From assembly GCF_001677475.2 (NCBI RefSeq), contig NZ_CP015229.1: 64,000 bases of DNA; one strand, 5' to 3'. The DNA is from Escherichia coli. GTDB lineage: Bacteria > Pseudomonadota > Gammaproteobacteria > Enterobacterales > Enterobacteriaceae. The position numbers and the translations under genes were made by a program. Each line of letters begins with the position of its first letter. Within the stretch, counting starts at the first letter, position 1. Shown here in pieces: positions 19,852 to 53,166 of the stretch. A model generated the notes under the pieces. That model worked only from the letters and a program-made list of their open reading frames with translations. It did not search any database and was not told where the DNA came from.

Positions 19852-19928
19852 GGAGCGGTAGTTCAGTCGGTTAGAATACCTGCCTGTCACGCAGGGGGTC
19901 GCGGGTTCGAGTCCCGTCCGTTCCGCCA
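19852..19928 (+). tRNA. aspV: tRNA-Asp (GTC); integration site of the downstream island
   Basis: 77-nt sequence identical to aspU; followed by a hairpin terminator. Confidence 0.97.
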
Positions 19929-20059: not shown

Positions 20060-21106
20060 TTACTCCAGCGCATCCCATTTTTCCAGCAGTTCTACTGGAA
20101 TTTCATTTATTACCTCCGAGAAGCGTTTTCCGACCAGGCGTTCTGCCTGGCGCAGCAAAGGAATGGTCGGGCTGCTCGGTTCGCTGTGCTCAAACCAGCG
20201 ACGGATGACACGCAGGCGTTCCAGCGCGTCGTTCCGGTCGCGGATCTGCCGGGGTTCTGCGCCGGACATCGGTGATATTTCCTCCGCGATATGCACCGGT
20301 AGCGCAATCTGCTCTGATGATATCTCTTCAGTATGAACGATGGTGGTGCTCTCCGGCTGTTCAGCCACTGGTTGTGGCAGGATCTCCGGCGTGGTGGTCC
20401 GTATCGCTCCCGGCAACAGGGCCAGCAATTGTGTCAGACGGGATAGGTTCGGTGCCTGGTCATTCAGCGTTTCACGCGCATGGCGTTGCAGCCGCTCAGT
20501 GGTCTCTGCGGCCTGGCGAAAGGCATCCAGCGGCAGTGTGCCGCGCGCCTCCAGGTCGGCCAGTTGCTGGCGTACCGATTCTGGTGCCAGCGCATCCGCC
20601 GGGCGTGATGCAGACAGCGAACGCTCCACATCCCGTACCTGAAGGCGTATGGCAGCATTGTTTGACAGTGTAATGCCACGAATATCCGCTATTACGCCTT
20701 CATGGTCCAGCAACGCCGCCAGGGCGTTACTACGTGCCACTGCCGCCTCTTCGGCGGTGATATCTTCAGTCGCGAGCAGTTGAGGATGGATGGCGTTCGG
20801 GTACGTGGCGCACAACGTTTCCAGCAGCGCGAGCGCCTCCGCCAGTCCCCTGGCACCGGCCTGCTGGATACGGCAGCGCAGCAGGACAACCAGAATGCGG
20901 ATATCTTTGCTGCGCGTCAGCAGGCGGCAGGCATCCCGCTCAAGCTCCGCCCAGTTAATGGTTTCCGGCGTACTGACAAAATCGCCGTATTGCGCTTCTT
21001 CACGCGGTGCGGCGCGCGTGAACAGTAGCAGGTATTCCGGATCGTACTCCAGATCCGGGCCGCAGGGGCATTCTGCCGAAATTGGGTCAGACAGGGATGT
21101 ATCCAT
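20060..21106 (-). CDS. tssA: Type VI secretion protein TssA (ImpA-family N-terminal domain)
   Basis: 348-aa ORF at end of the tssE-F-G operon; size and context fit ImpA/TssA; family assignment from recall only. Confidence 0.6.
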   Translation of the reverse strand: MDTSLSDPISAECPCGPDLEYDPEYLLLFTRAAPREEAQYGDFVSTPETINWAELERDACRLLTRSKDIRILVVLLRCRIQQAGARGLAEALALLETLCATYPNAIHPQLLATEDITAEEAAVARSNALAALLDHEGVIADIRGITLSNNAAIRLQVRDVERSLSASRPADALAPESVRQQLADLEARGTLPLDAFRQAAETTERLQRHARETLNDQAPNLSRLTQLLALLPGAIRTTTPEILPQPVAEQPESTTIVHTEEISSEQIALPVHIAEEISPMSGAEPRQIRDRNDALERLRVIRRWFEHSEPSSPTIPLLRQAERLVGKRFSEVINEIPVELLEKWDALE

Positions 21107-21116
21107 TAAATTATCC

Positions 21117-22112
21117 TCAGTGCGCCAGGTAGTGTTCTGGTTCGAAAATCATGCCCGTCACCGGGTTTTCGTGCATGGCTTTACCCGCCCATGCGGTCCA
21201 GCCCAGTTGGTACGAACCACCGGTAACAGCCGGAGGGGCGGCGTGGGGCTTTAGCTGTAGCTCAATTTCCCAGCAGTATTCAAAACCGCTAAAGGAGCGG
21301 ACCAGTTCTGTCAGGACTGGCAGGTTATTGCCGCCAGGCAGAAAACGTCGGTAATCCTCCAGCGTCAGCGGGCCGATAACCAGCCGGAACTTATACTGCA
21401 TGTCCGGCACGGCCTGGCCGATGAGTGCACCGTTGCCAATAACGGAAGAGGGGGCTGGCATCCCCAGCCGGGTGATCTCATCGTCCGCCACGGCTATCCA
21501 GTGCAGGACATACTCCTGTATCCGGAAAGGTACACCGAAATAGTGCGCCAGCGTGGTGGCCAGACCGTCCGGATTGCGGGACTCACGCACCAGATGGGCC
21601 GATGCCGCCAGGCGAGCGTGATCCTGCAACGGGCTGTCGGCGCTCTCCCGCAAATCCTGCCCGCTGAGGCTGGCGATATAAAAGGCAAAACGGTCATGTT
21701 GCGGTTTATCCAGACCGCCCCCAGCGGACTGGGCGCTGCGCCATGCCTGGTAAAACTGCGTCAGCCAGCGGTGATGAAAAAGATCAGAAAAACGGGTTAG
21801 CGTCGGGTCTCTTCGGCTTTCAGTCCGGTTGTGCGCCAGTTCGGTGTAGTGCAGCGGCAGTGGACCGTTCGGCCCCCACAGCCCGAGACTGTACAAACTG
21901 ATATGCAGCCGCTCTTCCTGCCAGCTCACACTGGCGATTTCCCGTGGCGCAAAGGTCAGCGCGGGAGTTTGTCCGAGGCGAAATTTTTCCATCCGTGGTT
22001 GCCAGGTGTTGCCTGCCGGAACAGTACACAACTGCACATCCACGCGGCGCATCAGGTTCAGAAAACCGTAACGCCAGGGGGTTTCCTGCGCCTGAGTGAA
22101 ATCGTCGCTCAT
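21117..22112 (-). CDS. tssG: Type VI secretion baseplate protein TssG
   Basis: 331-aa ORF, 4-nt overlap with tssF; canonical tssE-tssF-tssG order. Confidence 0.8.
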   Translation of the reverse strand: MSDDFTQAQETPWRYGFLNLMRRVDVQLCTVPAGNTWQPRMEKFRLGQTPALTFAPREIASVSWQEERLHISLYSLGLWGPNGPLPLHYTELAHNRTESRRDPTLTRFSDLFHHRWLTQFYQAWRSAQSAGGGLDKPQHDRFAFYIASLSGQDLRESADSPLQDHARLAASAHLVRESRNPDGLATTLAHYFGVPFRIQEYVLHWIAVADDEITRLGMPAPSSVIGNGALIGQAVPDMQYKFRLVIGPLTLEDYRRFLPGGNNLPVLTELVRSFSGFEYCWEIELQLKPHAAPPAVTGGSYQLGWTAWAGKAMHENPVTGMIFEPEHYLAH

Positions 22113-23992
22113 ACGCTTCCCCGCTGTCCCGCCCTGGCAGGCCAGGTCATAATTTTGCCGCGCTGCATGCTGTGCAGCGTCATCTGCGAGAAGGTATTAA
22201 TGGAAACATGACGGGCGATATAGTGCTCCAACACCAGACCGAACAGATACGGACTGATACCGGAGAACCCCTCCTCATCCACGGTCAGTTCACAACTGAC
22301 GCCGCGCCCATAGACCAGCAGCCCGGAACCGGGCAGACGGCGGGTGACCGGGGTGGTGTTGCAGCCAATCAGGCTGCGCACCTGGCGCGACTGCGGACTG
22401 TCATGCGCCGGAATAAACAGGTTAAGCAGATCGCGCAGCGCCTGACCACCGGTACGGTGATCCAGATCGGCCAGCGGCAGATAGTTAAAGGATAACTGGC
22501 GGATCAACCGCCAGGCCATTTCACGTTCAGCCAGCGGAGGCTGCGGCGGACGCGGCGGACGGATAAGCCCCACGCCCGCCACCGGGATGGCCGCATCCAC
22601 GGTCAGATCGTCCCGTCCATTGCGGGCAATAAGACAGGGCAGATCGCGGTTGGTGACCATAGCCGTGATGGTGATATGGCGCAGATTTTCCGGGTATGGC
22701 GCTTCATACTGGTCAACCAGCGACAGGAACACTTCTGATCCTGTATAGGAGGTGCGGGTGCCATAGCGGCGGGCATTTTCCGACAACCGGCGCGGCTCCC
22801 GGCGCAGGGAAAAATAACGTCCGTGATTGCCTTCATCATTATTGCGGGTGTGGTAGAGCGGGCGAAAGGCCATCTTCCGTGTGGTGTCAGTTTCCAGCCC
22901 TTCCACTTCCTGGACCGAGAACACCTCATAATCCAGCGGATGGGTTCTGTCCACCACCAGATGCTGTTCCGTCGTGCTGTGCGTGACATCGATCCGGGCG
23001 GCGACTCGGGGAAACAGGTTGATAACCGGGGTACAGAACAGACTGAACTGTGCCGCGTTTGTCTGGTGGATCAGCCAGTCCGGCGGCAGGCGGTTCAGCA
23101 GGATAACAATCTCCGCCACTCCGCCTTCAATTTTCTGTAACCCGGCAGACAGGCCTGTCGGGGTGAAAAAAAAGAAGCGTTCCGGACAGGTAAAATATTC
23201 ATGTAGCAGGTTATGGCCGTGAAACACATTCCACGCCAGCGGCAACAGTCCCTGATCCGGATCCAGGCCTTCGTACATAACGGGCTGTTTCAGATTCACA
23301 TCCAGTGCGCCGTCAAAATGCCCCGGAATGCCAGCCAGGCTCGCGATGGCGCTGGTATGCAGTAGTTCGAACAGGTGTGAGGCCGTGCGCTCCTCGCCGC
23401 AGAGATAAAATGGTAGCTTGTTCAGCCCTGCAAGCTGACTGAACGTCAGTTCACCAAAGGTGCGCAGGGTAATACGCAGCGCACCAGCGACGTGAATGTT
23501 GGCTGGCAGGTAGCGGTGCAGGGCAGGCATATCCGGCGGCGCGGCGGTCAGGCGCACCTCTTCGATGGCAAGCGGCCACAGCGTCACATTCTGGCTGCTA
23601 CGAAACTGGCAGGCAGTACTTTCGCCTTCCGGAATGGCGGAAAAAAAGGCCGTGTTGCGCGGGACGGTGAATCCCTTCGCCAGATCGCCTTCTTCCGGAT
23701 CGGGATGAAGCTGCGCCACGCTCATTGAGGGCGTGGGTGTGACGTAATTGGGGCTGACCACTTCCAGCAGGCGCTGGGTGAAACGGGGGAATTCAGCGTC
23801 AATTTTTAGCTGCGTGCGGGCGGTCAGGAAGCTGAAGGCCTCGACCATTCGCTCCACATACGGATCGGCAATATCCGTTCCCTGCATACCCAGTCGGGCG
23901 GCGACTTTAGGATGACGGGCGGCAAATTCGGCTCCCGTTTCCCGCAGATAGCTCAGTTCGCGGTTGTAGTATTCCAGTAGCCGTGGATCCAT
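22109..23992 (-). CDS. tssF: Type VI secretion baseplate protein TssF
   Basis: 627-aa ORF; length and operon position. Confidence 0.85.
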   Translation of the reverse strand: MDPRLLEYYNRELSYLRETGAEFAARHPKVAARLGMQGTDIADPYVERMVEAFSFLTARTQLKIDAEFPRFTQRLLEVVSPNYVTPTPSMSVAQLHPDPEEGDLAKGFTVPRNTAFFSAIPEGESTACQFRSSQNVTLWPLAIEEVRLTAAPPDMPALHRYLPANIHVAGALRITLRTFGELTFSQLAGLNKLPFYLCGEERTASHLFELLHTSAIASLAGIPGHFDGALDVNLKQPVMYEGLDPDQGLLPLAWNVFHGHNLLHEYFTCPERFFFFTPTGLSAGLQKIEGGVAEIVILLNRLPPDWLIHQTNAAQFSLFCTPVINLFPRVAARIDVTHSTTEQHLVVDRTHPLDYEVFSVQEVEGLETDTTRKMAFRPLYHTRNNDEGNHGRYFSLRREPRRLSENARRYGTRTSYTGSEVFLSLVDQYEAPYPENLRHITITAMVTNRDLPCLIARNGRDDLTVDAAIPVAGVGLIRPPRPPQPPLAEREMAWRLIRQLSFNYLPLADLDHRTGGQALRDLLNLFIPAHDSPQSRQVRSLIGCNTTPVTRRLPGSGLLVYGRGVSCELTVDEEGFSGISPYLFGLVLEHYIARHVSINTFSQMTLHSMQRGKIMTWPARAGQRGSV

Positions 23993-24007
23993 CGGTTTCT
24001 CTCTGAA

Positions 24008-24502
24008 TTAAAAAAACGTAATGCGGCTCTGTTCCATATCCAGCGCGCTGCGTACCCGGAATGCCATCGGGTAGGGCTGCGTGAGGATCTCGCCGCGAAT
24101 TTCAAACTGTAATGTGTTATGGCCGCTCTGGTGGCGCTCATCCTGAAGTGGGATGATTTGCAGGGGGGACGCTTTCAGCCGGGGTTCAAACCGGATGATG
24201 GTACGCAAAATGGCCCTGTGAATATCGTCCCACTTGTGTTCATACAGAAAGCTGCCCGCCAGTGGCGGCAGGCCGTAGTTCAGTACGGACGCTGCCGCGT
24301 GCGGATAACGTGCAGCATCAATATCATCTTCATGGCTGACGGTGTTGAGCAGAAATGACAAATCCCGGCGAATGATCTCCTTAAGCTGAACCGGGCTGAC
24401 GCTGATATCGTGGTCGCGTTTCTGGTTTGGGGCATCATCACACAGGCGGTCAAACAGCGTGGGCAGCAGGTGATTGCCCGGACGCTGGCGGGAAGCGCTC
24501 AC
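24008..24502 (-). CDS. tssE: Type VI secretion baseplate protein TssE (phage gp25-like)
   Basis: 164-aa ORF; gp25/GPW-like size and sequence (LKEIIRRDLSFLLNT). Confidence 0.85.
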   Translation of the reverse strand: MSASRQRPGNHLLPTLFDRLCDDAPNQKRDHDISVSPVQLKEIIRRDLSFLLNTVSHEDDIDAARYPHAAASVLNYGLPPLAGSFLYEHKWDDIHRAILRTIIRFEPRLKASPLQIIPLQDERHQSGHNTLQFEIRGEILTQPYPMAFRVRSALDMEQSRITFF

Positions 24503-25329
24503 GCGTCGCTTCCTTCAGCGGTGTTAAAGGTACAGGTGGACAAATCCAGCAGGCTGATATCGCCGTGACCGGTGAGCCACACCCTCTGACCCAGCGCCTG
24601 TACCAGAGTCTCTCCCGGCCCGTCCTGCCAGACCGTTTTCCGGCACAGACGCAGGGAGTCGGCAGCCTTTTCAGAGCCGCTGTAGCGGGAAAACAGCCAG
24701 GCACTGTGTGTGTCGCCATTATTCAGTGTGACGTTGACGGGTTTCCAGATCAAATCGGTCAGATGCGCAGGCCGCGGCGATTTTAGCGAACAGATTTGTG
24801 AAAACGGCAACCAGATATATACTCCGCCCGCGATGAGTTCGAGTACCGGACCGGTACGGGAGTCGCTGTCGCTAATCCAGTCAAATGCGCCGCCATTCCA
24901 CTGTCCTGCAGTATCTGTTATGGCCTCAAGTGCGCGGCTGCGGTGGGCGTCAGCTTCCTGCGCTTCACCACGGGCGTTACAGGCGAGGGCGGTCAGCAGA
25001 TCCTCCATCCAGGCGGGCGGCGGGAGAATAAAATCGGGCCGCTGTTCTCCCTGAAAGCAGGCGTGGCGGTATATCTCACAGCGGATCAGCTCGCCAAATA
25101 CCTGCGCTTCGCGGGTATAATTTGCGTCCATCCGGGCGCATAGCTGGATCTGTTGCAGTGCCCGCGACCAGTCGCCTGCCACGCACAATAACTGAAACAG
25201 GCTGTGGCGGCGGGAGGCCTGCGCCGGGGGCATCCTGACCTGCTGCTCTGCCATCTGAATGCCCTCCGCCACGGAATAATCCCGCAGCAGCGCCGACAGG
25301 GTAGCCGGTAGCTCGTTATTGTTTGTCAT
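24499..25329 (-). CDS. tagJ: T6SS accessory protein TagJ (ImpE family)
   Basis: 276-aa ORF, 4-nt overlap with tssE; size and context fit ImpE/TagJ. Confidence 0.55.
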   Translation of the reverse strand: MTNNNELPATLSALLRDYSVAEGIQMAEQQVRMPPAQASRRHSLFQLLCVAGDWSRALQQIQLCARMDANYTREAQVFGELIRCEIYRHACFQGEQRPDFILPPPAWMEDLLTALACNARGEAQEADAHRSRALEAITDTAGQWNGGAFDWISDSDSRTGPVLELIAGGVYIWLPFSQICSLKSPRPAHLTDLIWKPVNVTLNNGDTHSAWLFSRYSGSEKAADSLRLCRKTVWQDGPGETLVQALGQRVWLTGHGDISLLDLSTCTFNTAEGSDA

Positions 25330-26230
25330 GAGATATCTCTCCGTGTTGTGCCGGGTTTATCCGATAATGGCTGTCAATGCCAATGATGCGATGCTCTTTG
25401 CGTGTCAGGTCGGGTAGAACGGTGTTATGCGCTGTTTCCGGTGCGCATTCCGGGGATAGCAGGTGCAGGATATCTGGGGGCGTCTTTTCGGCAGGCCAGG
25501 CGGTTTCCCCTTCGCCGGTGGCGTCCAGGACATCGAGAATAGCGTCAATGCTTAACCCGCCAGTGACCATATCCTGCAATGTCTCGGCTTCAGTGACCAG
25601 ATCACGCAATGAATCCAGATCCTGTGAGGAGGGCTCTTCGTTAAAGGGAAAAGGATCAGCATGGCGATGAAGATCTTGTTCAGGAGATAACAACGCCTCG
25701 CGGTATTCCTGATAAAGTCGAGTCAGGGCATTTTCTTTTTTAGCATCTTCTCCAGTGGAGGAGGCTCCATGAACAGGAATGATATCGAATGGATTTTGTG
25801 ATGTCAGATGCTGCTGCCTGAACCAATCCAGATCCAGATATTCGGTTATTGTTTCCGACATGGTGGCAGTCTGCGATGTCGTTTTTACTGCGCTCAGGTC
25901 CGGAGATGATGGATTGCCGTGCACAAGGCACCATGAAGATAACCCCCATTCTATCAGGTCGCCTTCATTCAGACGCATACGGTGATGAGGTTCCACAATC
26001 TGGTCGTTTACCGTACAGCAATATTCGGTAGACTGATTGATAATCCACCATGCTTCTTCGTGGCGGGTCAGACTGAGGGCAATCTTTACATCATCATTCA
26101 CCTCAAAAACAGGAATCCAGGGTGAGGTAACGGTGAAGATAATTTGGGTTCCTTCAGTCGCGTAAATTGTGTTATCGGCGATCCCGTGCGCCTGTATTTT
26201 TTGGAGTCCCCACGTAATATTTGGTTTCAT
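25316..26230 (-). CDS. T6SS-associated FHA-domain-like protein (first gene of leftward operon)
   Basis: 304-aa ORF; N-terminal region loosely FHA-like (…CTVNDQIVEPHHRMRLNEGDLIEWG…), acidic C-terminal half; divergent from clpV. Confidence 0.4.
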   Translation of the reverse strand: MKPNITWGLQKIQAHGIADNTIYATEGTQIIFTVTSPWIPVFEVNDDVKIALSLTRHEEAWWIINQSTEYCCTVNDQIVEPHHRMRLNEGDLIEWGLSSWCLVHGNPSSPDLSAVKTTSQTATMSETITEYLDLDWFRQQHLTSQNPFDIIPVHGASSTGEDAKKENALTRLYQEYREALLSPEQDLHRHADPFPFNEEPSSQDLDSLRDLVTEAETLQDMVTGGLSIDAILDVLDATGEGETAWPAEKTPPDILHLLSPECAPETAHNTVLPDLTRKEHRIIGIDSHYRINPAQHGEISHDKQ

Positions 26231-26562
26231 TGTGTATCACTGTGTAGAATGTTTCTTTCAAAAGAATAAGTTTTCTAAATTTTTAGATAAGCAATGCTGA
26301 TTAATTTACTTTATCAATATAAGTTTTCGCGGAAATATATAGTGGCGATTTTCAATTTAATATATTCATGGTATGTATGAAATTGGCTTGCTCTATTGAA
26401 TATCACCATGAAAAAGATACTACCTGCTATATTACATTGTGTTCTGTGATATGCATCATTGTTTCATTCGGCCTTTTTGATAATTCTATTAATTAGAAGT
26501 TTTAATCGATACAGTTATGTTTATGTATCATTTATATGTTCTTACATCATTAGGTGTAACAG

Positions 26563-29196
26563 ATGGACACTCCTGTTTCGCGCAGTGCACTGTATGGAAA
26601 GCTAACCAAATCTTTGTTTAGATCTTTGGAATCTGCGACGACGTTCTGTAAATTACGCGCTAATCCTTATGTCGAACTGACGCATTGGTTGCATCAGTTA
26701 ATACAACAACCAGAGAATGACATTCACAATGTGCTTCGACATTATCAAATAACATCTGCTGATGTTGAGAAGGCGTTAATTCAGCAATTGAATATATTGC
26801 CTGCCGGAGCGAGTGTAATTAACGATTTTTCCCATCATATCGATCTTTCTGTTGAAAAAGCCTGGATGTTGGCAAGTATCCGCTTTGGCGATCAAAAAAT
26901 TCGTAGTGGATGGTTATTACTTGCCTGGTTAACCACGCCAGAATTGTGTCGGGTGTTAAAAAATATTTGTGCGCCATTGGCAGAGCTGCCGGTAGATGAA
27001 CTATTAGATATTCTTCCGTCTTTAATCACTTCATCTCCTGAATTAACAGAAATGCCTTATGACTGCTCGGATTTAAATTCTGCAGTACCGGGGGAAGCTA
27101 GCCAGGTCTTTGCCGGCGAATCAACCGGAAGCAAATCCGCGCTGGCGAAATACTGCCAGGACATGACTGCGCTGGCCCGTGAAGGCAATATCGATCCGGT
27201 CACCGGTCGCGAACACGAGATCCGTACTATGACGGATATTCTGCTGCGCCGTCGCCAGAACAACCCGCTACTGACCGGCGAAGCGGGAGTCGGGAAAACG
27301 GCAGTGGTGGAAGGATTCGCGCTGGCGATTGCCGGGGGGGAAGTACCGCCTTCACTGCGTAACGTGCGGTTGCTGTCACTGGATGTTGGAGCGCTGCTGG
27401 CTGGGGCGTCCATGAAGGGTGAATTTGAATCCCGCCTGAAAGCGTTGCTAGAAGAGGCCGCGCGCTCGCCGCAGCCGGTAATCCTTTTTGTTGATGAAGT
27501 TCACACGCTGGTGGGCGCTGGTGGTACATCCGGTACGGGGGATGCTGCCAACCTGCTGAAACCGGCGCTGGCGCGTGGCACCCTGCGCACCATCGGCGCA
27601 ACCACCTGGAGCGAGTACAAACGCCATATCGAAAAGGATCCGGCGCTGACTCGGCGTTTTCAGGTATTGCAGGTTGCTGAGCCGGAAGAGGTTGCGGCTG
27701 TTGAGATGGTACGCGGGTTAGTCACCACGCTTGAAAAACACCATGACGTGCTGATCCTTGATGAGGCCGTGCGCGCCGCCGTACAGCTTTCTCACCGTTA
27801 CATTCCGGCCCGGCAACTACCGGATAAGGCCATCAGCCTGCTGGATACGGCGGCGGCCCGTGTAGCGCTGTCGCTGCATACCCCGCCTGCGAGAGTCCAG
27901 TATCTGCGCCAGCAGCTCAACGCTGCCGAACTGGAGCAGGTGTTGTTATTAAAGCAGGAAAAAATGGGTATCCGCTCGGAGCGGGGCGATGTACTGACGG
28001 CGCGGATTATATCGCTTAATGCCGATCTTTCTGACACCGAAGCGCGGTGGCAGCAGGAACTGGAGTTGGTTCGCAGTTTACAGGAGCAACGCGGCGCAGC
28101 GCCTGGCGAGCGCGACGAAATCACTCTACAACAGGCAGAAACGGCATTAAGAGGCTGGCAGGGTGAAAACCCCGTCGTGTACCCGGAAGTCAGTGCAACC
28201 GTGGTGGCAGAGATTGTCTCCGACTGGACCGGTATTCCCGCCGGACGGATGGTGAAAGATGAAGCCAGTCAGATACTGGAATTGCCCACCCGTTTGGCGC
28301 AGCGTGTTACCGGGCAGATGGATGCGTTGGCGCAGATTGGCGAGCGTATCCAGACCGCGCGGGCGGGTTTAGGTGACCCGCGTAAGCCTGTGGGTGTCTT
28401 TTTGCTGGCCGGGCCGTCCGGAGTAGGCAAGACTGAGACCGCGCTGGCACTGGTAGAAGCAATCTATGGCGGTGAACAGAATCTGATCACCATCAACATG
28501 AGCGAGTATCAGGAGTCTCACACAGTCTCCACTCTGAAAGGCGCGCCGCCCGGCTACGTCGGTTATGGCGAAGGCGGCGTGTTGACGGAAGCGGTACGCC
28601 GCCATCCCTGGAGCGTGGTATTGCTGGATGAAATTGAAAAAGCCCATCACGACGTCCACGAGCTGTTCTTCCAGGTGTTTGATAAGGGGGCGATGGAAGA
28701 TGGCGAAGGTGTCCACATCGATTTCAAAAATACCACGCTGTTGTTGACGACTAACGCGGGGGCGGAACTTATCAGCCAGCTCTGTGAGGATCCGGCGCTG
28801 ATGCCCGATTCGGCAGGGTTAAAAGAGGCGTTAATGCCGGAGTTACGTAAACACTTCCCGGCGGCTTTCCTGGGGCGTGTGACGGTTATTCCTTATTTAC
28901 CGCTGGATGAGACCGCGCGTGGTGTTATTGCCCGCCTGCATCTTGGCAGATTGATGGCTCGGATGGCGGAGCAGCATGGCGTTTCACTGGTGTATGGCGA
29001 TGAACTGATTACGCATATTGTGTCGCGCTGCCCGATGCACGAGACCGGCGCTCGTTTGCTCATCGGCTATATCGAACAACATATCCTCCCACAACTGTCC
29101 CGTTATTGGTTGCAGGCGATGACAGAGAAAACGGCCATCACGCAAATCCGCATTCGTGTTGATGAGGATGAACAGATTATTTTTGAAACGGATTAA
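26563..29196 (+). CDS. clpV: T6SS AAA+ ATPase ClpV (TssH)
   Basis: 877-aa ORF; two Walker A motifs (GEAGVGKTA, GPSGVGKTE), Clp N-domain. Confidence 0.92.
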   Translation: MDTPVSRSALYGKLTKSLFRSLESATTFCKLRANPYVELTHWLHQLIQQPENDIHNVLRHYQITSADVEKALIQQLNILPAGASVINDFSHHIDLSVEKAWMLASIRFGDQKIRSGWLLLAWLTTPELCRVLKNICAPLAELPVDELLDILPSLITSSPELTEMPYDCSDLNSAVPGEASQVFAGESTGSKSALAKYCQDMTALAREGNIDPVTGREHEIRTMTDILLRRRQNNPLLTGEAGVGKTAVVEGFALAIAGGEVPPSLRNVRLLSLDVGALLAGASMKGEFESRLKALLEEAARSPQPVILFVDEVHTLVGAGGTSGTGDAANLLKPALARGTLRTIGATTWSEYKRHIEKDPALTRRFQVLQVAEPEEVAAVEMVRGLVTTLEKHHDVLILDEAVRAAVQLSHRYIPARQLPDKAISLLDTAAARVALSLHTPPARVQYLRQQLNAAELEQVLLLKQEKMGIRSERGDVLTARIISLNADLSDTEARWQQELELVRSLQEQRGAAPGERDEITLQQAETALRGWQGENPVVYPEVSATVVAEIVSDWTGIPAGRMVKDEASQILELPTRLAQRVTGQMDALAQIGERIQTARAGLGDPRKPVGVFLLAGPSGVGKTETALALVEAIYGGEQNLITINMSEYQESHTVSTLKGAPPGYVGYGEGGVLTEAVRRHPWSVVLLDEIEKAHHDVHELFFQVFDKGAMEDGEGVHIDFKNTTLLLTTNAGAELISQLCEDPALMPDSAGLKEALMPELRKHFPAAFLGRVTVIPYLPLDETARGVIARLHLGRLMARMAEQHGVSLVYGDELITHIVSRCPMHETGARLLIGYIEQHILPQLSRYWLQAMTEKTAITQIRIRVDEDEQIIFETD

Positions 29197-29208: not shown

Positions 29209-29773
29209 ATGGCAAAAGAATTAAGTGGCGCACTGTGGTTCAGTCGCTTTCCTGGAAGTTCTTCCACTAATGATTTGCAGGGGACTTTTCGTGCATCGGT
29301 AGATAATTTTTTGCGCGCGCATTGGTAATGCGCGTGCAAGGGTCAGTATCTCTGCAACATATCGCCCTCCCGCCAGAGCATATCTCATGCACTGGTCATG
29401 GTTGATTGCTCATGAAATCGTTCAGGCAAAAAACGTCCCGGCGATGGAGGGGGTGGATATTGAGTGGGTTCACCCGACTGAGCAAGCCTCGCTTGAAGCG
29501 GCGCAGGCTATGGTTACGGCCTATGGTATTAATAATCTGAATGTCGCGCCTGCACTGAGCTCCAACCATACACGCGGTACTGCGATAGATATGAATATCA
29601 GTTGGAGCGGAACATTAACAATTGCGGGGAGCAATGGTCAGAATGTTGCAATTAATACACTACCTCGAACCGGAATGAATGCCCAGCTTCAGGCGGTAGG
29701 TCTGGGTTACGGCGTCAGAAAATTTGTTGGCGGCAATACAGATATACCTCACTGGTCAATTGATGGACATTAA
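29209..29773 (+). pseudogene. Frameshifted peptidase M15 (VanY-like zinc D-Ala-D-Ala carboxypeptidase fold) candidate T6SS effector
   Basis: ATG 29209 with ggag RBS opens a 39-codon frame ending taa 29326..29328; peptidase frame continues in +1 from 29303 (track ORF 29387..29773) with SxHxxGxAxD (SNHTRGTAID) and distal His; T6 run 29307..29312 and (GC)4 are the likely slip site. Confidence 0.6.
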
Positions 29774-32262: not shown

Positions 32263-32670
32263 ATGGCATATGTTTATGGACTGGTAGATTCATTACAGGG
32301 CACTGACATGGTGGGAATGGCGGGGGCAGGAGACAGAAAGGAATGTGTGTTCTTAGTTCAGGTATATGCACATGTGGGGAATACTGGAGCCTGGAAGCAG
32401 GGGCGAAAGGTTTTTGGGGATAAATCGATCCCCAGAGGAACAGCAATTGCCACTTTTGTTAACGGAAAGTATCCCTCGAGGCAGAATGAGCATAAGCATG
32501 CCGCTTTCTATCTGGAACAGGATAGTCAGTATATTTATGTTATGGACCAGTGGACAGGTAAAACCACGAAAGTCTCTGCACGCCCTATTTCCCGAAAAGG
32601 TGGAATGCGCAGCGATGGAACATATCCTGATGCCAGTAATAATGCGGAAGCTTTTTATATTATTGAGTAG
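32263..32670 (+). CDS. Small Cys/His-containing protein without signal peptide; candidate T6SS effector (possibly Tae2-like amidase)
   Basis: 135-aa AT-rich ORF between tssC and hcp; Cys in KECVFLV and His in EHKHAAFY; family assignment tentative. Confidence 0.4.
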   Translation: MAYVYGLVDSLQGTDMVGMAGAGDRKECVFLVQVYAHVGNTGAWKQGRKVFGDKSIPRGTAIATFVNGKYPSRQNEHKHAAFYLEQDSQYIYVMDQWTGKTTKVSARPISRKGGMRSDGTYPDASNNAEAFYIIE

Positions 32671-32682
32671 AGGATAGATTCA

Positions 32683-33135
32683 ATGGGAACACGTTTTATT
32701 TTTTCTCTGTTGTTGGGTTTTATGTTGTTTTATTCACCATTTGTTGCAGCGTGGGAAGTCAGTTGCCCCGTGTTTATCAATATAAAATCCTCAACAACAG
32801 TACTGGAGCCAGATATATCTGCATCGTGGCAGAGATCTTCCCGCTATGAACCCCGTCTGTGGTTGGACGGGGTAGGGATGTCGCAGGGAAAACCTGAAAA
32901 TCGGGTGGATCTAAAACCAGAGACAGAGACAATAAAGGGTGAAACCAGGCAAATATGGGATACCACAATGGCCAGTAATCAGAATAGTGAACGTTACTGG
33001 GTTTCCTGTATTTATAACCATGGACAGGTTTGGTTATCACAACCGGTCCCTGCATTGGCGACACAGTGCCAGGCATCTTCTTTGCCGGGGCAGCGGGTAC
33101 CAGGAGAGTCATCGGTATCTGTGACATGTAAATAG
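32683..33135 (+). CDS. Secreted Cys-containing protein; candidate immunity partner
   Basis: 150-aa ORF with N-terminal signal peptide (FSLLLGFMLFYSPFVAAWE), 12 nt after preceding gene. Confidence 0.4.
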   Translation: MGTRFIFSLLLGFMLFYSPFVAAWEVSCPVFINIKSSTTVLEPDISASWQRSSRYEPRLWLDGVGMSQGKPENRVDLKPETETIKGETRQIWDTTMASNQNSERYWVSCIYNHGQVWLSQPVPALATQCQASSLPGQRVPGESSVSVTCK

Positions 33136-34404: not shown

Positions 34405-35748
34405 ATGAGTTGGAATAACCGGGTGGTCTGGAGTGAAGGACAATTTTTGTTGCCACAGATGTTTCAGCAGCAGGAACGCTATCTGGAACATGTCATTCAT
34501 TATCGCAGTTTGCCTCTTTCACCTTTTTACTGGGGTTTCAATGAGTATGGTATTGGTAGTGAGGCGCTGAACATCGGAAAACTGGTACTTACGAAGGCTT
34601 CCGGGGTATTTGCTGACGGTACACCTTTTAATGCGCCGGGTCATACACCACTCCCGCCGCCGCTGACCATCCTTCCAGAACATCTTAACCAGTTGATTTA
34701 TCTGGCTGTGCCAATACGTACGCCGAACAGTGAAGAAACCAGTTTCGACAATAACCCTGAATCACTGGCACGTTTTTCGGTACATGAAAGTGAAATCCGT
34801 GATGCCAATTCGCTGGGGCGAGGCGCGCAACTGCTGCAACTTAGCCACCTGCGCTTGCGACTGTTACCGGAAAAGGCGGTGACAGACGCGTGGATCGGCC
34901 TGCCGCTGACGCGCATCACGGCGCTGCATCCCGATGGTCGGGTCGATATAGACAAAGAGTTGATCCCGCCAGTGGCGAACTACCAGGCCAGTACGCTGAT
35001 ATGTACCTGGCTGTCGTGGATTAACGATCTGATAAAAATGCGTGCAGATTCGCTGGCGGAACGATTGACGGGGAGCGACAAACACGGTCATGAAGCGGCG
35101 GAAGTGTCGGATTACCTGCTTCTGCAAGTTCTTAATCGTTTCGGCCCCTTATTGATCCATATGTCGAAAACGCCGCTATCGCCTGAAGTACTTTATCGTA
35201 ACCTCTGCGCACTGGCCGGAGAACTCTCTACCTACGTGCGTCCGCAAACACGTCGTCCGGAAGAATATAAAGAATATAAGCACCTGACGCCCTATGCCGG
35301 GCTGAAATCGGTGGTGGACGAGGTTCAGTATCTACTGAATGCTGTGCTAATACGTGGGGCGCAGCGAATCCCTCTGGAAGAGGGAACTTACGGTATTCTC
35401 AATGCGGTGGTTGAACCTACCGAACTGTCAGATTTCAGCTCGTTAGTATTGGCGGTGAAGGCACAGATGTCCGCCGACACCTTACTACAACATTTTTCGG
35501 CTCAGACCAAAATAGGGCCGTCAGAACGCCTGCCGGAACTGATTCGCTCGCACCTTCCTGGTCTTGTTCTACAGGTGCTGCCAGTGCCACCGCGTCAGAT
35601 CCCGTTCCAGTCCGGTTACATCTATTACGACATCCGCCGCGACGGCGTGTTGTGGGAACATATCGCCCGCTATGGTGGCATGGCAATGCATACCGCCGGA
35701 GAGTTTCCAGGGCTGGAGCTGGAGCTGTGGGGAGTTCGCGATAAATGA
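34405..35748 (+). CDS. tssK: T6SS baseplate protein TssK
   Basis: 447-aa ORF; position between tssJ and tssL. Confidence 0.88.
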   Translation: MSWNNRVVWSEGQFLLPQMFQQQERYLEHVIHYRSLPLSPFYWGFNEYGIGSEALNIGKLVLTKASGVFADGTPFNAPGHTPLPPPLTILPEHLNQLIYLAVPIRTPNSEETSFDNNPESLARFSVHESEIRDANSLGRGAQLLQLSHLRLRLLPEKAVTDAWIGLPLTRITALHPDGRVDIDKELIPPVANYQASTLICTWLSWINDLIKMRADSLAERLTGSDKHGHEAAEVSDYLLLQVLNRFGPLLIHMSKTPLSPEVLYRNLCALAGELSTYVRPQTRRPEEYKEYKHLTPYAGLKSVVDEVQYLLNAVLIRGAQRIPLEEGTYGILNAVVEPTELSDFSSLVLAVKAQMSADTLLQHFSAQTKIGPSERLPELIRSHLPGLVLQVLPVPPRQIPFQSGYIYYDIRRDGVLWEHIARYGGMAMHTAGEFPGLELELWGVRDK

Positions 35749-36464
35749 CCGACGATATTCTGACGCAACCTGCGGTGAATACCCTGCAATTACAGCCTTC
35801 AATGAGGGGAACAAGGTCGCCTGATAATGACGGTTACGATACGCTCGTCCAGGACAGCCTTCGCAGGGAAGATATAAAGGTGGTGGTTGAAGACGGGCCA
35901 GATTTGAAGCTCCGCTTGGCTGAGATCACTGCTGCTGTGAATCCTCTTCTGGCGGCGGCCAGCCCTCTGTTATGCGCGCTGGCGCAAATGCCCCGTGAAC
36001 TTTCCCCTGGTTTTGTCGAACATTATCGCGCCCTACTGGAGCGTGAAGTCCGCCGGTATCAGACGCTGTGCGACCAGGCAAACCTGCGCCGCGAACATGT
36101 GCTGGCGGTACGTTACTGCGTGTGCACGGCGCTGGATGAAGCTGCCAACAACACCGTCTGGGGGCGACGCGGTGTCTGGGCCGGGAAGAGCCTGCTGGTG
36201 ACTTTTCATGGCGAAAGTGAAGGCGGCATCAAGCTGTTTCAGATAATCGGGCGTCTGGCCGCCAGCTTCCAGGAGCACAGCGATGTACTGGAAATCATTT
36301 ACCACATTCTGGGACTGGGTTTTGAAGGCCGCTACAGTGTACGGCCTGACGGGCGTAAACAACTGGACGATATCCGCCAGCAACTGCTGACTCAACTGGT
36401 CCAGCGTCGCGATCCGATCACGCCGACGCTCTTGCCGGGTTTTGCCGGTGCCGTCAGTGGGTGA
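35745..36464 (+). CDS. tssL: TssL cytoplasmic DotU-like domain (239 aa), ends at in-frame TGA before its expected membrane anchor
   Basis: 4-nt overlap with tssK; no TM helix in this ORF; stop 36462..36464 immediately followed in-frame by ATG of the next ORF. Confidence 0.7.
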   Translation: MTDDILTQPAVNTLQLQPSMRGTRSPDNDGYDTLVQDSLRREDIKVVVEDGPDLKLRLAEITAAVNPLLAAASPLLCALAQMPRELSPGFVEHYRALLEREVRRYQTLCDQANLRREHVLAVRYCVCTALDEAANNTVWGRRGVWAGKSLLVTFHGESEGGIKLFQIIGRLAASFQEHSDVLEIIYHILGLGFEGRYSVRPDGRKQLDDIRQQLLTQLVQRRDPITPTLLPGFAGAVSG

Positions 36465-37061
36465 ATGCGGCGGATGCGCCGGGTGCCGGTCTGGCTGAGC
36501 GCCGGAATCGCCCTGCTGGTGATGCTGACGCTGTTTGGCCTTTACAGCCACCGGATGAACCTCGCCACCGAAACCGTACAACAGCGTATCGACGCCATTG
36601 GTAAAAATCTTCCGCCGCCACCCGTTCCGGTGCATAAACTGCGGTTGAAAATCCTGCTGGCGAACGAAATCGCCCGTGGCCTGCTGACGGTGGAGGAAGA
36701 TGACCATCACAGCCGTGTAATCTTTCGTGGCGATACGATGTTTATACCGGGGCAGAAAACCGTGAATGATGCGCTGCGCCCGGTGATTGACAAGGCCGCG
36801 CGTGAGATTGCGCGTGTGGGGGGCGCGGTGACGGTGACCGGCCACACGGACAGCCAGCCGATCCACTCCGCTGAATTCCCGTCCAACCAGGTATTGTCGG
36901 AAAAACGTGCGGCAGAAGTAGCTTCGCTGCTGACATCTGGTGGCGTTCCGGCTAGCCGAATTCGGGGTGTCGGTAAAGGGGATACTATGCCGGTGGCTGA
37001 TAATAGTACTAAAACTGGACGAGCGCAGAATCGCCGGGTGGAAATTCTGGTGGTGGAGTGA
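36465..37061 (+). CDS. TM helix plus OmpA/MotB-like peptidoglycan-binding domain (expected C-terminal part of a long-form TssL)
   Basis: 198-aa ORF; TM segment WLSAGIALLVMLTLFGLY then OmpA-like motifs (TGHTDSQP…NQVLSEKRA…NRRVEI). Confidence 0.7.
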   Translation: MRRMRRVPVWLSAGIALLVMLTLFGLYSHRMNLATETVQQRIDAIGKNLPPPPVPVHKLRLKILLANEIARGLLTVEEDDHHSRVIFRGDTMFIPGQKTVNDALRPVIDKAAREIARVGGAVTVTGHTDSQPIHSAEFPSNQVLSEKRAAEVASLLTSGGVPASRIRGVGKGDTMPVADNSTKTGRAQNRRVEILVVE

Positions 37062-37069
37062 ATTAATAA

Positions 37070-37755
37070 TGGAAAAGCTAGAGTGTAATGCGTCTAACCA
37101 TTCGCCAGTGTGGGGAGTAACAGAATTTATATTCTGGAAACTGGCGCCTAAAAAATGGGGGGGAGGCGTAGCATTTGGGCGTTATTTTAAAGATGGTTGG
37201 GTGAAGCATAACGGTCTTTTGATCAATGCAGCTGCAAATGCCTGGCATTTACCTGCCCCCTTACTTGCTGGAGTTTGTTGGATTGAAGTAGGGGGTGATC
37301 CTCAGATTATAGACACGCTGGCATTTGAATTTCGTGCTATGAGTTGGAGTGGGCCTGAATGGGTTGATGAACATATCACAATCGCTTCGAAACCAGAAAA
37401 AACTTCTTTTGGTGCGGTGAGTATGCAATTGCGAACTGCAGCCAGAACACTCGGGCTTGATGAGACTAAAATGGACAACTCTCAGTTGCGTGAGCTGGCA
37501 AATTGTCTCCAGCATGATGTGTTTAATATACAATTAGCTGCAAGACATCTTTATCAATTGGCTGAAAAAGATGGTTTTCAGGTATCCTTACCTCACCTGA
37601 CAAAAGAACAAATAAGAATTATTGGAGCTCGTTATAATCGAGGTGTTTCCCTTAGTCTGGAAAAAATAAAGGAAGATACCAGCTATGGCGATTTTATTAT
37701 AAATAACTGGTTACATTTCTCTAGTTTATTAATAACTACCTGGAAGTCTTCATGA
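37070..37755 (+). CDS. Lysozyme-like / lytic-transglycosylase-like protein without signal peptide; candidate Tge-type effector or T6SS-associated murein hydrolase
   Basis: AT-rich; start MEKLECN chosen after OmpA ORF stop (track 36940 start overlaps it); motifs CWIEVGG, FGAVSMQL, IGARYNRG resemble GH23 E…S / GLMQ / AYN-G. Confidence 0.4.
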
Positions 37756-38039
37756 GAAAAATAATTCAGATATCAGGGTGGTTATTATTTATTATGGGAT
37801 TGGTCACTATCATGCTTTTTTCCGGGAGTGAGTACCAGTGGATGCAGGATATGGACCCTTCAATAACAGCATTACCTCAGGGAAACGGAAATAGAGATGT
37901 AATCAGAAAATTAATTTATTCTATTTCAGTGGCTATTCAGATTGTTCTTTATTTTCTTTCAGTATCGCGTACAGGAAAGGGATTTTCAGCCCTGGGTATT
38001 TTGCTATTACTGATTACCGCATGGAGCTCTGAACAATAA
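37752..38039 (+). CDS. Small two-TM membrane protein; candidate immunity
   Basis: 95-aa ORF coupled (ATGA) to the upstream gene; hydrophobic segments WLLFIMGLVTIMLF and LGILLLLITAW. Confidence 0.4.
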   Translation: MRKIIQISGWLLFIMGLVTIMLFSGSEYQWMQDMDPSITALPQGNGNRDVIRKLIYSISVAIQIVLYFLSVSRTGKGFSALGILLLLITAWSSEQ

Positions 38040-42151: not shown

Positions 42152-42847
42152 ATGCAACAATATACGCGTTTTTTTATTATTTTTTTGTTATATGCCATGT
42201 CAGGAAATGTTTTTGCTGATATCAGAAAAAACACAGGAACTATTGACCCCGATTATATTAATCTCAGTGCGCAGGAATTTTTGTCATTTTATGCTCGTGG
42301 AACGTCACAGGAAAAAGAAAATGTTCTGATGTATGTCCTTGGTGTGAGTGATGCGACAGAAAGTAAAACCTGGTGTGGATATAATAAGATTAATGAAATA
42401 GAACTTTATTCATCGGTACTGACATATCTTAATCAGCAGTCGGTTAACGATATGAATATGCGAGCTTCAACTCTGATTGAACAAGCGATGGTCAGGCTGT
42501 TTCCCTGCCCGGATATGGCATCACCGGAAAAAAAATCTCCCCGGCAGTCATCTGTTTCACACCTGACCTCTGGCGCGTTCGATCTGAACGGAGATGATTT
42601 TTTCCGCTTCTGGCAGTCAGATAACAGGCAGGATAGGCTTAATGCGAAAATCTATCTTTTGGGTATAGAAGATGCCACGGAAAGAAAAACATGGTGCGAT
42701 TATAAAACGATTAAAACAGTTACACTGGATGAGATTATTTACTGGTATTTCAGAAAAAAAACGTCAGATAAACTGAATGAACGGGCTGCAAATATTATTA
42801 TTGAGGCACTAAGTAAACACTCCTGTGATAAAGGAAATAATAAATGA
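42152..42847 (+). CDS. Secreted protein with two tandem homologous domains; candidate immunity for Tae4
   Basis: 231-aa AT-rich ORF; signal peptide (FFIIFLLYAMSGNVFA); internal repeat (…VLMYVLGVSDATESKTWCGYNKI… vs …IYLLGIEDATERKTWCDYKTI…). Confidence 0.4.
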   Translation: MQQYTRFFIIFLLYAMSGNVFADIRKNTGTIDPDYINLSAQEFLSFYARGTSQEKENVLMYVLGVSDATESKTWCGYNKINEIELYSSVLTYLNQQSVNDMNMRASTLIEQAMVRLFPCPDMASPEKKSPRQSSVSHLTSGAFDLNGDDFFRFWQSDNRQDRLNAKIYLLGIEDATERKTWCDYKTIKTVTLDEIIYWYFRKKTSDKLNERAANIIIEALSKHSCDKGNNK

Positions 42848-52966: not shown

Positions 52967-53166
52967 GATTAACTACCTTGATTAGTTGCTTGTGGTGAGC
53001 GGTGATTAAGGGGGGGGCAGCCCCAGGGAAAGATCACATAACGTTGTTTTTTGCACTAAATAATTCGCACTATATATTCAATAATTGAGTAATTCCTTAT
53101 TACTCAAAACTGTTTTTCACAGCTTATATATAATCAAATACTCCTTACATAAATAAGGAGAACAAA

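What the first reader, a model, noticed from the sequence alone, without database searches (positions are those of the whole stretch)
26231..26562. 330-bp AT-rich divergent control region between the two T6SS operons
This is the longest non-coding stretch in the island and separates the leftward baseplate operon from the rightward clpV operon. Its AT-richness makes it a likely H-NS silencing and promoter hub. I found no GATC sites, convincing sigma-54 element or Fur box by eye.
Basis: seen in the sequence. Interest (0 to 1): 0.3.

Follow-up and report, generated by a model that had tools for sequence, protein, structure and literature searches.

The report
AT-rich divergent T6SS promoter region
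This 332-bp AT-rich gap is the shared control region between the two back-to-back operons of a Salmonella SPI-6-type type VI secretion gene cluster in E. coli; it is an ordinary regulatory spacer, although it holds one short, strongly conserved block whose binding protein is not known.

Summary
Positions 26231-26562 (332 bp, 27.4% GC) lie between tagK (leftward tagK-tagJ-tssE-tssF-tssG-tssA operon) and tssH/clpV (rightward). This is the most AT-rich 332-bp stretch in the 64-kb window. It has no GATC, no sigma-54 element and no Fur box better than chance.

The island is a SPI-6-type T6SS at tRNA-Asp (aspV), present in 119 of 5426 complete E. coli genomes. The same divergent, AT-rich spacer (330-423 bp, 23-30% GC) occurs in Escherichia, Salmonella, Citrobacter and Enterobacter.

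Sequence conservation is uneven:
- The clpV-proximal 150 bp is more conserved than clpV third-codon positions.
- A near-invariant block (26441-26470, core TGATATGCATCATTGTTTC) overlaps the only positionally conserved sigma-70-like promoter (-35 at 26431-36, -10 at 26454-59, predicted TSS about 26466).
- A conserved TATAAT-like hexamer on the minus strand (26364-26359) is the candidate tagK promoter.
- A small hairpin that sequesters the ribosome-binding site precedes the clpV AUG.

In Salmonella the orthologous clpV promoter is bound by H-NS and Fur. Verdict: an ordinary new member of a known kind, of low interest.

The parts
26231..26562 (.). tagK-tssH intergenic region, 332 bp, 27.4% GC
25316..26230 (-). 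tagK, first gene of the leftward tagK-tagJ-tssE-tssF-tssG-tssA operon (20060-26230)
   Evidence: NCBIfam TagK equivalog; annotation in 99.6%-identical E. coli loci
26563..29196 (+). tssH/clpV, first gene of the rightward operon. Its first ~490 nt are also AT-rich (GC 0.35-0.47)
26343..26366 (-). Conserved block on the tagK side: minus-strand -10-like hexamer TATATT (26364->26359; TATAAT in most other genera), followed by TTGAAAATCGCCA. Candidate P_tagK with predicted TSS about 26352 and a leader of about 122 nt
   Evidence: Positional conservation in the alignment; minus-strand PWM hits at the same column in several orthologues. Inferred; no TSS data
26416..26424 (+). Conserved upstream element GATACTACC (AATATTAAC elsewhere), about -50 to -42 of the predicted clpV TSS. 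Either UP-like or a factor site
   Evidence: inferred
26431..26437 (+). Predicted -35 of P_clpV (ATTACA/TTACAT here; TTGCTA, TTGTAA, TTGTAT in other genera)
26441..26470 (+). Most conserved block of the region (TTCTGTGATATGCATCATTGTTTCATTCGG). The core motif TGATMTGYATCATTGTTTY at 26447-26465 contains the dyad TGAT-N4-ATCA (26447-26458)
   Evidence: Majority fraction 0.94 against a mean of 0.68. Unique in the window. Exact core motif found in 12 of the 15 T6SS loci held at that point, always once per locus. 71-97% identity across genera
26454..26459 (+). Predicted -10 of P_clpV (CATCAT here; TATCAT in 11 of 16 sequences, CATCAT in 4, TGTCAT in 1). Predicted TSS about A26466, leader about 97 nt
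   Evidence: The only plus-strand promoter prediction that recurs at the same alignment column
26479..26497 (+). Best Fur-box-like 19-mer (GATAATTCTATTAATTAGA, 13/19). Not better than chance
26542..26559 (+). Leader hairpin UUACAUC-AUUA-GGUGUAA, whose 3' arm contains the Shine-Dalgarno sequence (AGGUG, 26552-26556). About -5.5 kcal/mol
   Evidence: 97.6% of cells paired against 32-54% for slid partners; 2 pairs with compensatory changes

Best explanation
The region is the bidirectional regulatory spacer of a SPI-6-type T6SS island. It carries two back-to-back, weak sigma-70-type promoters.

- P_clpV: -35 at 26431-36, 17-bp spacer, -10 CATCAT at 26454-59, TSS about 26466.
- P_tagK: minus-strand -10 TATATT at 26364-26359, TSS about 26352.

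The two predicted start sites are about 114 bp apart. They sit in about 330 bp of 73% A+T DNA that continues about 490 bp into clpV.

Most likely, H-NS coats this AT-rich tract and keeps both operons silent, as shown for the Salmonella orthologue. A further sequence-specific protein probably binds the near-invariant TGAT-N4-ATCA/TTGTTT block. That block overlaps the spacer, the -10 and the start site of P_clpV, which is the position of a repressor operator.

After transcription, a small hairpin that pairs with the Shine-Dalgarno sequence probably damps clpV translation.

What is shown: the anatomy, the composition, the conservation pattern and the orthology. What is inferred: the TSS positions, H-NS occupancy in E. 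coli, the identity and sign of the factor at the block, and the function of the hairpin.
For: - Gene identities and divergent orientation.
- Lowest GC in the window.
- Same architecture and composition in 15 orthologous loci from Escherichia, Enterobacter, Citrobacter, Salmonella and metagenomes.
- The clpV-proximal half (26414-26562) is more conserved than clpV third-codon positions (0.92 vs 0.72 for E. coli E69; 0.59 vs 0.47 for Salmonella). The tagK-proximal half drifts about as fast as tagK third-codon positions, and in the Escherichia comparisons somewhat more slowly (0.74-0.77 vs 0.59-0.60).
- The block 26446-26465 is the conservation peak.
- The promoter with its -10 at column 26454 is top-ranked in Salmonella, C. 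koseri and Enterobacter ENT03, and in the top four in most others.
- Conserved minus-strand TATAAT.
- Conservation begins about 52 bp upstream of the predicted clpV TSS, as expected for a promoter.
- H-NS motif matches exceed shuffles, and their density is the highest in the window.
- Published H-NS EMSA/ChIP and Fur binding at the Salmonella clpV promoter.
- Hairpin covariation.
Against: - There are no TSS, ChIP or reporter data for this locus.
- The tool's strict sigma-70 scan finds no site in 26100-26700 (0 against 2.6 expected). The E. coli P_clpV reading is only 8/12.
- AT-rich DNA yields many promoter-like hits, and my PWM used remembered frequencies.
- The block matches no known factor better than chance: CRP core 8/10 p=0.20, FNR 8/10 p=0.53, Fur 13/19 p=0.38.
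- Hairpin support rests on 12-14 related sequences and two covarying pairs. In some orthologues an alternative pairing with the AUG is predicted.
- This copy of the island carries a tssL nonsense codon and a frameshifted accessory gene, so regulation may be moot in this strain.
Confidence: 0.65

Rival explanations
1. The conserved dyad is a class II activator site for a CRP/FNR-family protein. It would drive a downstream promoter whose -10 is GATAAT at 26479-26484 (TSS about 26491-26493, site centre at about -38.5 to -40.5), rather than acting as an operator over a -10.
For: TGTGA-N6-TCATT gives 8/10 to the CRP core, and GTGAT-N4-ATCAT gives 8/10 to FNR. An nAnnAT hexamer recurs at column 26479 in 12 of the 16 aligned sequences, preceded by a conserved T-tract. 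A similar half-degenerate CRP site is functional at deoP2 (from memory).
Against: Neither match beats shuffles (p=0.20 and 0.53). The bases that discriminate CRP (the G of GTGA) or FNR (the outer T/A) are variable or never present; Salmonella has CCTGA. The spacing to GATAAT is about 3 bp shorter than the canonical -41.5. That hexamer is absent in Salmonella (TTCGAG). Conservation is asymmetric, extending through TTGTTT, which does not look like a symmetric dimer site.
Confidence: 0.15
2. The block, or the 26479 19-mer, is a degenerate Fur operator, so the locus is iron-repressed as reported for Salmonella clpV. This is compatible with the H-NS model.
For: Fur is reported to bind the Salmonella clpV promoter directly. 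The minus-strand reading of the block gives 11-12/19 to the Fur consensus in several orthologues. The 26479 site gives 12-14/19 in Escherichia alleles.
Against: No match exceeds chance in this AT-rich sequence (375/1000 shuffles). The best-scoring position is not conserved between genera. The window's block scores only 10/19 by my own hand count, with no tool call. The original Fur footprint paper could not be read.
Confidence: 0.2
3. The region hides a small gene, a leader peptide or an sRNA, and that explains the conservation.
For: A 42-aa ORF lies at 26368-26496. A start-like codon at 26523 is conserved as ATG/GTG/TTG, and in 8 of 16 sequences (6 of the 14 distinct ones) a 12-codon uORF ends 3 nt before the clpV AUG.
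Against: The 42-aa ORF is interrupted in E. coli E69, lies in the least conserved part and has no Pfam hit. The uORF frame and end differ between lineages (three different frames; 33 codons running into clpV in Escherichia), and no Shine-Dalgarno sequence precedes it. Rfam gives only sub-threshold eukaryotic noise. RNAalifold finds no structure except the SD hairpin. The leader fold z-score is -0.88.
Confidence: 0.04
4. The spacer is merely AT-rich filler, and both operons are transcribed from elsewhere.
For: No consensus promoter by the strict scan. The left half evolves at close to the rate of tagK third-codon positions.
Against: tagK and clpV are the first genes of opposed operons, so there is no upstream gene to read through from. 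Conserved blocks and a right half under stronger constraint than synonymous sites argue for function. Promoter activity of the orthologous clpV upstream region has been shown in Salmonella.
Confidence: 0.03

Closest known systems
Salmonella enterica SPI-6 T6SS, tagK(sciF-side)-clpV(sciG) intergenic / clpV promoter region
   Same: Orthologous flanking genes (TagK 55-57% aa identity; ClpV N-terminus 80%). Same divergent layout. Similar length (367-368 bp) and GC (26-27%). Shared conserved block, predicted -35/-10 and SD hairpin. In Salmonella it is bound by H-NS and Fur and de-repressed by c-di-GMP, bile or arginine.
   Different: Outside the conserved blocks the sequence is about 40% identical, close to tagK third-codon identity in the same comparison. 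The E. coli version has a weaker core promoter (CATCAT and TTA instead of TATCAT and TTG). It lacks the GATC inside the block. Its AT-rich tract runs about twice as far into clpV. No experimental data exist for E. coli.
EAEC sci1 T6SS promoter (Fur boxes overlapping Dam GATC sites; PMC3145626)
   Same: A T6SS promoter under global-regulator control. In non-Escherichia orthologues a single conserved GATC lies inside the operator-like block over the promoter, which is formally reminiscent of the sci1 arrangement.
   Different: A different T6SS subtype with different flanking genes. The window has no GATC at all and no Fur box above chance, so the defining features are not met here.
EHEC EDL933 / Shigella sonnei T6SS bidirectional regulatory region (tssB<->hcp2; PMC10924462, PMC5363993)
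   Same: An AT-rich intergenic region between two divergent T6SS operons in Escherichia/Shigella, with predicted divergent promoters and predicted H-NS and CRP sites. H-NS repression is shown for the EHEC system.
   Different: A different T6SS family with a different gene order (tssB/hcp2, not tagK/clpV). Sequence relatedness was not tested here.
H-NS xenogeneic silencing of AT-rich horizontally acquired DNA (Navarre 2006; Lucchini 2006, cited)
   Same: An island at a tRNA gene, patchily distributed (2% of E. coli genomes). The promoter region is far more AT-rich than the host. H-NS-motif density is the highest in the window.
   Different: The island's coding DNA is not AT-rich (53% GC). Only the approximately 1.1-kb zone around the divergent promoters is. 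H-NS binding is untested.

Membership tests
SPI-6-type (tagK-clpV) T6SS divergent promoter region | Lies between divergently transcribed tagK and tssH/clpV within a tagK-tagJ-tssEFG-tssA / clpV-tssBC-hcp-tssJKLM cluster | tested here: met
SPI-6-type (tagK-clpV) T6SS divergent promoter region | Homologous sequence elements shared with the Salmonella region (conserved block, -35/-10, leader) | tested here: met
   Alignments; motif found once per locus; identity statistics
SPI-6-type (tagK-clpV) T6SS divergent promoter region | Direct binding of H-NS and Fur to the clpV promoter, as published for Salmonella | not testable with these tools
   Literature on Salmonella only. The primary papers PMC4468533 and PMC6759306 are not held
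H-NS-silenced xenogeneic promoter | AT content well above the genome average, on horizontally acquired DNA | tested here: met
   27.4% GC against 51.9% for the window; island at tRNA-Asp; present in 119/5426 genomes
H-NS-silenced xenogeneic promoter | High-affinity nucleation motif (TCGATAAATT-like; consensus recalled from memory, Lang et al. 2007) | tested here: inconclusive
   Best matches are 8/10. Four sites at >=8/10 against 1.13 in shuffles (p about 0.03). No 9-10/10 site
Fur/Dam epigenetic switch (EAEC sci1 type) | Fur box(es) overlapping GATC sites in the promoter | tested here: not met
   0 GATC; best Fur match 13/19, reached by 375/1000 shuffles
Sigma-54 / bEBP-dependent T6SS promoter | TGGCAC-N5-TTGCW -24/-12 element | tested here: not met
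   Best match 7/11, reached by 997/1000 shuffles
CRP- or FNR-dependent promoter | TGTGA-N6-TCACA or TTGAT-N4-ATCAA site at a class I/II position | tested here: inconclusive
   8/10 to each at 26445/26446, not above chance. The discriminating bases are not conserved. Centre at -13.5 of the favoured TSS, or about -39 of the alternative
Known RNA families (Rfam) | Match at or above the gathering score | tested here: not met
   Only sub-threshold snoRNA/miRNA noise

The most novel reading that the evidence does not exclude
The near-invariant 19-30-bp block (TGAT-N4-ATCA followed by TTGTTT) over the clpV promoter is the operator of a not-yet-identified sequence-specific regulator shared by all SPI-6-type T6SS loci of Enterobacteriaceae. 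In Salmonella, Citrobacter and Enterobacter its single conserved GATC makes binding sensitive to Dam methylation, giving a phase-variable switch. The Escherichia lineage has lost that GATC and with it this layer of control. A conserved SD-sequestering hairpin adds translational, possibly temperature-dependent, control of ClpV.
Probability: 0.25. Interest if true: 0.4.

Novelty: new member of a known kind. Interest (0 to 1): 0.2.

Why it matters
SPI-6-type T6SSs are gut-competition weapons that stay silent in the laboratory. Knowing where their promoters and operators lie would show how to switch them on. For E. coli this subtype is rare (2% of complete genomes) and unstudied. The comparative map produced here gives concrete targets for mutagenesis: two candidate promoters, one invariant operator-like block, a lineage-specific loss of a GATC, and a hairpin over the ribosome-binding site. 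These targets would also apply to the well-studied Salmonella system. Beyond that, the region is what one expects between two divergent operons of a horizontally acquired island.

Tried and rejected
1. Strict sigma-70/terminator scan of 26100-26700: nothing found.
2. Rfam at permissive E-value: only noise.
3. Internal repeats: short, AT-rich pairs at chance level. The TATGCATCATT/TATGTATCATT direct repeat is not conserved outside Escherichia.
4. Consensus scans for Fur, CRP, FNR, sigma-54, PhoP, IHF, LexA, ArcA and RcsAB: none beat dinucleotide shuffles.
5. Metagenome-wide scan with the block motif, to look for a regulon. No regulon evidence.
6. The motif occurs nowhere else in the 64-kb window.
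7. The 42-aa ORF at 26368-26496 and the uORFs at 26517/26523/26536: not conserved in frame.
8. RNA structure for the block or the whole leader: none beyond the SD hairpin; z-score -0.88.
9. Primary papers on H-NS and Fur at SPI-6 (PMC4468533, PMC6759306) are not held, so published footprint positions could not be compared. A search for Salmonella TSS data was unproductive.
10. By eye I also looked at PmrA-, OmpR-, EvgA- and SlyA-like half-sites. I dropped them as numerology, because they were either not conserved or only half-sites.

Full report
**Observation**

The window is an E. coli-type chromosome segment: an rRNA operon, tRNA-Asp, dkgB-yafC...rnhA-dnaQ, then a second tRNA-Asp (aspV, 19852-19928), followed by a T6SS island that ends before yafV.

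Inside the island, tagK (25316-26230, minus strand) heads a tightly packed leftward operon, tagK-tagJ-tssE-tssF-tssG-tssA. tssH/clpV (26563-29196, plus strand) heads the rightward genes. NCBIfam confirms TagK, TssH, TssE/F/G, a TssA-like protein and TssB/C directly on the window's ORFs.

The gap between them is 26231-26562, 332 bp. Its GC content is 27.4%, against 51.9% for the window and 52.8% for the island. It is the most AT-rich 332-bp stretch in all 64 kb. GC stays below about 0.47 until about 27050, so the AT-rich zone is really about 1.1 kb long.

- There is no GATC. Only 0.78 were expected, so the absence alone means little.
- The best sigma-54 match is 7/11, reached by 997 of 1000 shuffles.
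- The best Fur match is 13/19 at 26479, reached by 375 of 1000 shuffles.

One sub-claim needs a caveat. This is the longest spacer among the T6SS structural genes, the next being 246 bp after tssM. At the degenerate right edge of the island, however, 52967-53346 (380 bp) lies between a symE-like toxin gene and an ISEc1 fragment and has no credible ORF.

**What the island is**

The spacer plus 100 bp of each flank is found at 95% identity or better in 119 of 5426 complete E. coli genomes, always chromosomal and always annotated tagK | tssH.

TagK homologues occur in other Escherichia species (75-86% identity) and in Citrobacter, Enterobacter and Salmonella enterica (55-60%). In Salmonella the locus is the SPI-6 T6SS, with the same order: clpV, spacer, tagK, ImpE-family tagJ, tssE, tssF. 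The window therefore holds an E. coli member of the SPI-6-type T6SS, inserted at aspV.

**Comparative anatomy**

I collected 15 orthologous spacers. All are 330-423 bp at 23-30% GC, flanked by coding DNA at 52-60% GC. Composition is therefore conserved everywhere. Sequence is not.

- The tagK-proximal part (26231-26413) is about as diverged as tagK third-codon positions: 0.40 against 0.40 for Salmonella and 0.74 against 0.60 for E. coli E69. In the Escherichia comparisons it is somewhat more conserved than those positions.
- The clpV-proximal 150 bp (26414-26562) is more conserved than clpV third-codon positions: 0.59 against 0.47 for Salmonella and 0.92 against 0.72 for E69.
- The conservation peak is 26446-26465, with a majority fraction of 0.94 against a mean of 0.68.

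The core of that peak, TGATMTGYATCATTGTTTY (TGATATGCATCATTGTTTC in the window), has three properties:
- It is unique in the window.
- Its exact form is present, always as a single copy, in 12 of the 15 T6SS loci held at that point. L007 and L012 carry one- to three-base variants, and the distant L016 has no equivalent.
- It always lies about 100-130 bp upstream of the clpV ATG.

It contains the dyad TGAT-N4-ATCA.

**Promoters (inferred)**

A log-odds sigma-70 scan of every orthologue gave many scattered hits, as expected for AT-rich DNA. The hexamer frequencies in that scan were recalled from memory.

Only one plus-strand prediction recurs at the same alignment column. It has a -35 at 26431-37 (ATTACA/TTACAT here; TTGCTA, TTGTAA or TTGTAT elsewhere), a 16-17 bp spacer, and a -10 at 26454-59 (CATCAT here; TATCAT in 11 of the 16 sequences, CATCAT in 4, TGTCAT in 1). 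It is the top hit in both Salmonella sequences, C. koseri and Enterobacter ENT03, and in the top four in most others. This places the clpV TSS near A26466, with a 97-nt leader.

Strong conservation begins about 52 bp upstream of that point, with an A-tract/ATAYTAAC element at 26410-26424. That is the extent expected of a promoter.

In E. coli the core elements score 4/6 + 4/6. This explains why the tool's stricter scan returned nothing (0 found against 2.6 expected). It also suggests an intrinsically weak or factor-dependent promoter.

On the minus strand, a second conserved patch (26343-26366) reads TATATT in the window and TATAAT in 7 of the 16 aligned sequences, followed by TCAAAAAAGACA-like sequence. 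Minus-strand promoter hits fall at this column in several orthologues. This is my candidate for P_tagK, with a TSS near 26352 and a leader of about 122 nt.

The two start sites would be about 114 bp apart, back to back.

**The conserved block**

Nineteen consecutive near-invariant bases are more than a -10 hexamer needs. The block covers the spacer, the -10 and the start site of P_clpV, which is where a repressor would sit. I could not name the protein.
- The CRP core gives 8/10 (TGTGA-N6-TCATT) and FNR gives 8/10 (GTGAT-N4-ATCAT). Neither beats shuffles.
- The positions that discriminate CRP from FNR are variable or never canonical. Salmonella has CCTGA.
- Read on the minus strand, the block matches the Fur 19-mer at 11-12/19 in several genera, but at only 10/19 in the window; the 10/19 is my own hand count, with no tool call.
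- A metagenome-wide scan with the motif returned the T6SS spacer 18 times. The rest were unrelated chance hits, so there is no sign of a regulon.

One detail stands out. Every non-Escherichia sequence of the close SPI-6-type set (12 sequences) has a GATC at the equivalent of 26448, inside the block, and it is often the only GATC in the spacer. The distant relative L016 has none. All Escherichia alleles seen have GATA instead: the window, L001-L004 and 16 metagenomic alleles.

**Leader**

No Rfam family matches. The leader as a whole does not fold unusually well (z = -0.88).

The one conserved structure is a 7-bp hairpin, 26542-26548 with 26553-26559. Its 3' arm contains the Shine-Dalgarno AGGUG.
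- 97.6% of cells pair, against 32-54% when partners are slid.
- Two pairs show compensatory double changes (C-G/U-A/U-G and A-U/G-C/G-U).
- Only 6 of 500 shuffles reach the covariation score.
- Stability is modest, about -3 to -6 kcal/mol. In some orthologues the same CAUC pairs with the AUG instead.

I read this as mild translational damping of clpV. The evidence is limited.

Candidate small ORFs and uORFs are not conserved in frame.

**Mechanism and literature**

For Salmonella SPI-6:
- H-NS binds the clpV promoter (EMSA, ITC, ChIP).
- Deletion of hns raises clpV, hcp1, tae4 and vgrG expression.
- c-di-GMP, induced by bile or arginine, relieves the repression.
- Fur represses clpV by direct binding (PMC10657408; PMC12288458; PMC10482370).

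The window's spacer is orthologous and shares the composition. It has the highest density of H-NS-motif-like 10-mers in the window, with 4 sites at 8/10 or better against 1.13 expected, p about 0.03. That 10-mer consensus (TCGATAAATT, Lang et al. 2007) was recalled from memory.

H-NS silencing of two weak divergent promoters is therefore the best-supported model, but it rests on orthology. The 'hub' label is too strong, because hcp1, tae4 and vgrG have their own promoters in Salmonella. Whether Fur acts in E. coli is open.

**Comparison, novelty and verdict**

The closest known system is the Salmonella SPI-6 clpV promoter region. Membership by position and shared sequence elements is met. The binding data cannot be tested here.

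The region is not an EAEC sci1-type Fur/Dam switch, since it has no GATC and no Fur box. It is not a sigma-54 promoter. The EHEC/S. sonnei T6SS has an analogous bidirectional AT-rich region with predicted H-NS and CRP sites, but it belongs to a different T6SS family.

The finding is real and correctly located, and its interpretation is sensible but generic. It is a new member of a known kind. Interest is low (0.2). The unidentified conserved operator-like block and the lineage-specific loss of GATC are the only points that might repay an experiment.

**Condition of this copy**

tssL carries a CGA->TGA nonsense codon at 36462-36464, relative to two other E. coli strains. The small gene after clpV has a 1-bp insertion. 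This strain's T6SS may therefore be inactive, whatever the promoter does.

Noticed in passing
window 36462-36464 (tssL, 35745-37061): In-frame TGA where E. coli E04 and MEI003 have CGA (C->T at 36462). It splits the long-form TssL into 239-aa and 198-aa ORFs, the second starting with ATG immediately after the stop. This core membrane-complex gene is probably inactivated.
   Followed up: partly
window 29209-29773: The hypothetical gene directly downstream of clpV has a 1-bp insertion (near 29321) relative to E04, so only a 128-aa ORF (29387-29773) remains. This is a second sign of decay in this copy of the island.
   Followed up: partly
orthologues L005-L015 and L138-L141, at the column equivalent to window 26448: A GATC inside the conserved block is invariant in every non-Escherichia sequence of the close SPI-6-type set (12 sequences; the distant L016 lacks it) and is often the only GATC in the whole spacer. 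All Escherichia alleles have GATA. A Dam-sensitive site may have been lost in Escherichia.
   Followed up: partly
window 26563-27050: The first ~490-600 nt of clpV are AT-rich (GC 0.40-0.46, GC3 0.33-0.42) in the Escherichia lineage. In Salmonella, Citrobacter and Enterobacter only the first ~300 nt are mildly so. The AT-rich zone around the promoters is therefore about 1.1 kb here.
   Followed up: partly
window 52673-52966 (-) and 53347-53661 (+): A SymE-family type I toxin ORF (PF08845, E = 8e-15) and a fragment of an ISAs1/ISEc1 transposase lie at the right edge of the island, just before yafV. The 380 bp between them is longer than the finding's spacer.
   Followed up: partly
window 32263-33135, 37081-38039, 42152-43320: The effector/immunity cargo differs from other E. 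coli copies of the island. The window has BPSL0067-family and STY0301-family genes where MEI003 has Tae4/Tai4. It has an unassigned 224-aa ORF plus a 95-aa membrane ORF where E04 has Tlde1. Rap1a-type immunity genes follow tssM.
   Followed up: no
window 25316-26230 (TagK): TagK gives a weak, sub-threshold FHA-domain hit at residues 54-96 (E = 0.0013, 19.6 bits against a cutoff of 20.7). This hints at a phosphothreonine-binding role for this accessory protein.
   Followed up: no
locus L014 (ENA metagenome contig): In one orthologue the called gene across the spacer from tagK carries Rhs/YD-repeat Pfam hits instead of a normal clpV annotation, yet its first codons read MEAPVSRSAL like ClpV. This may be a rearrangement or a gene-calling artefact.
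   Followed up: no
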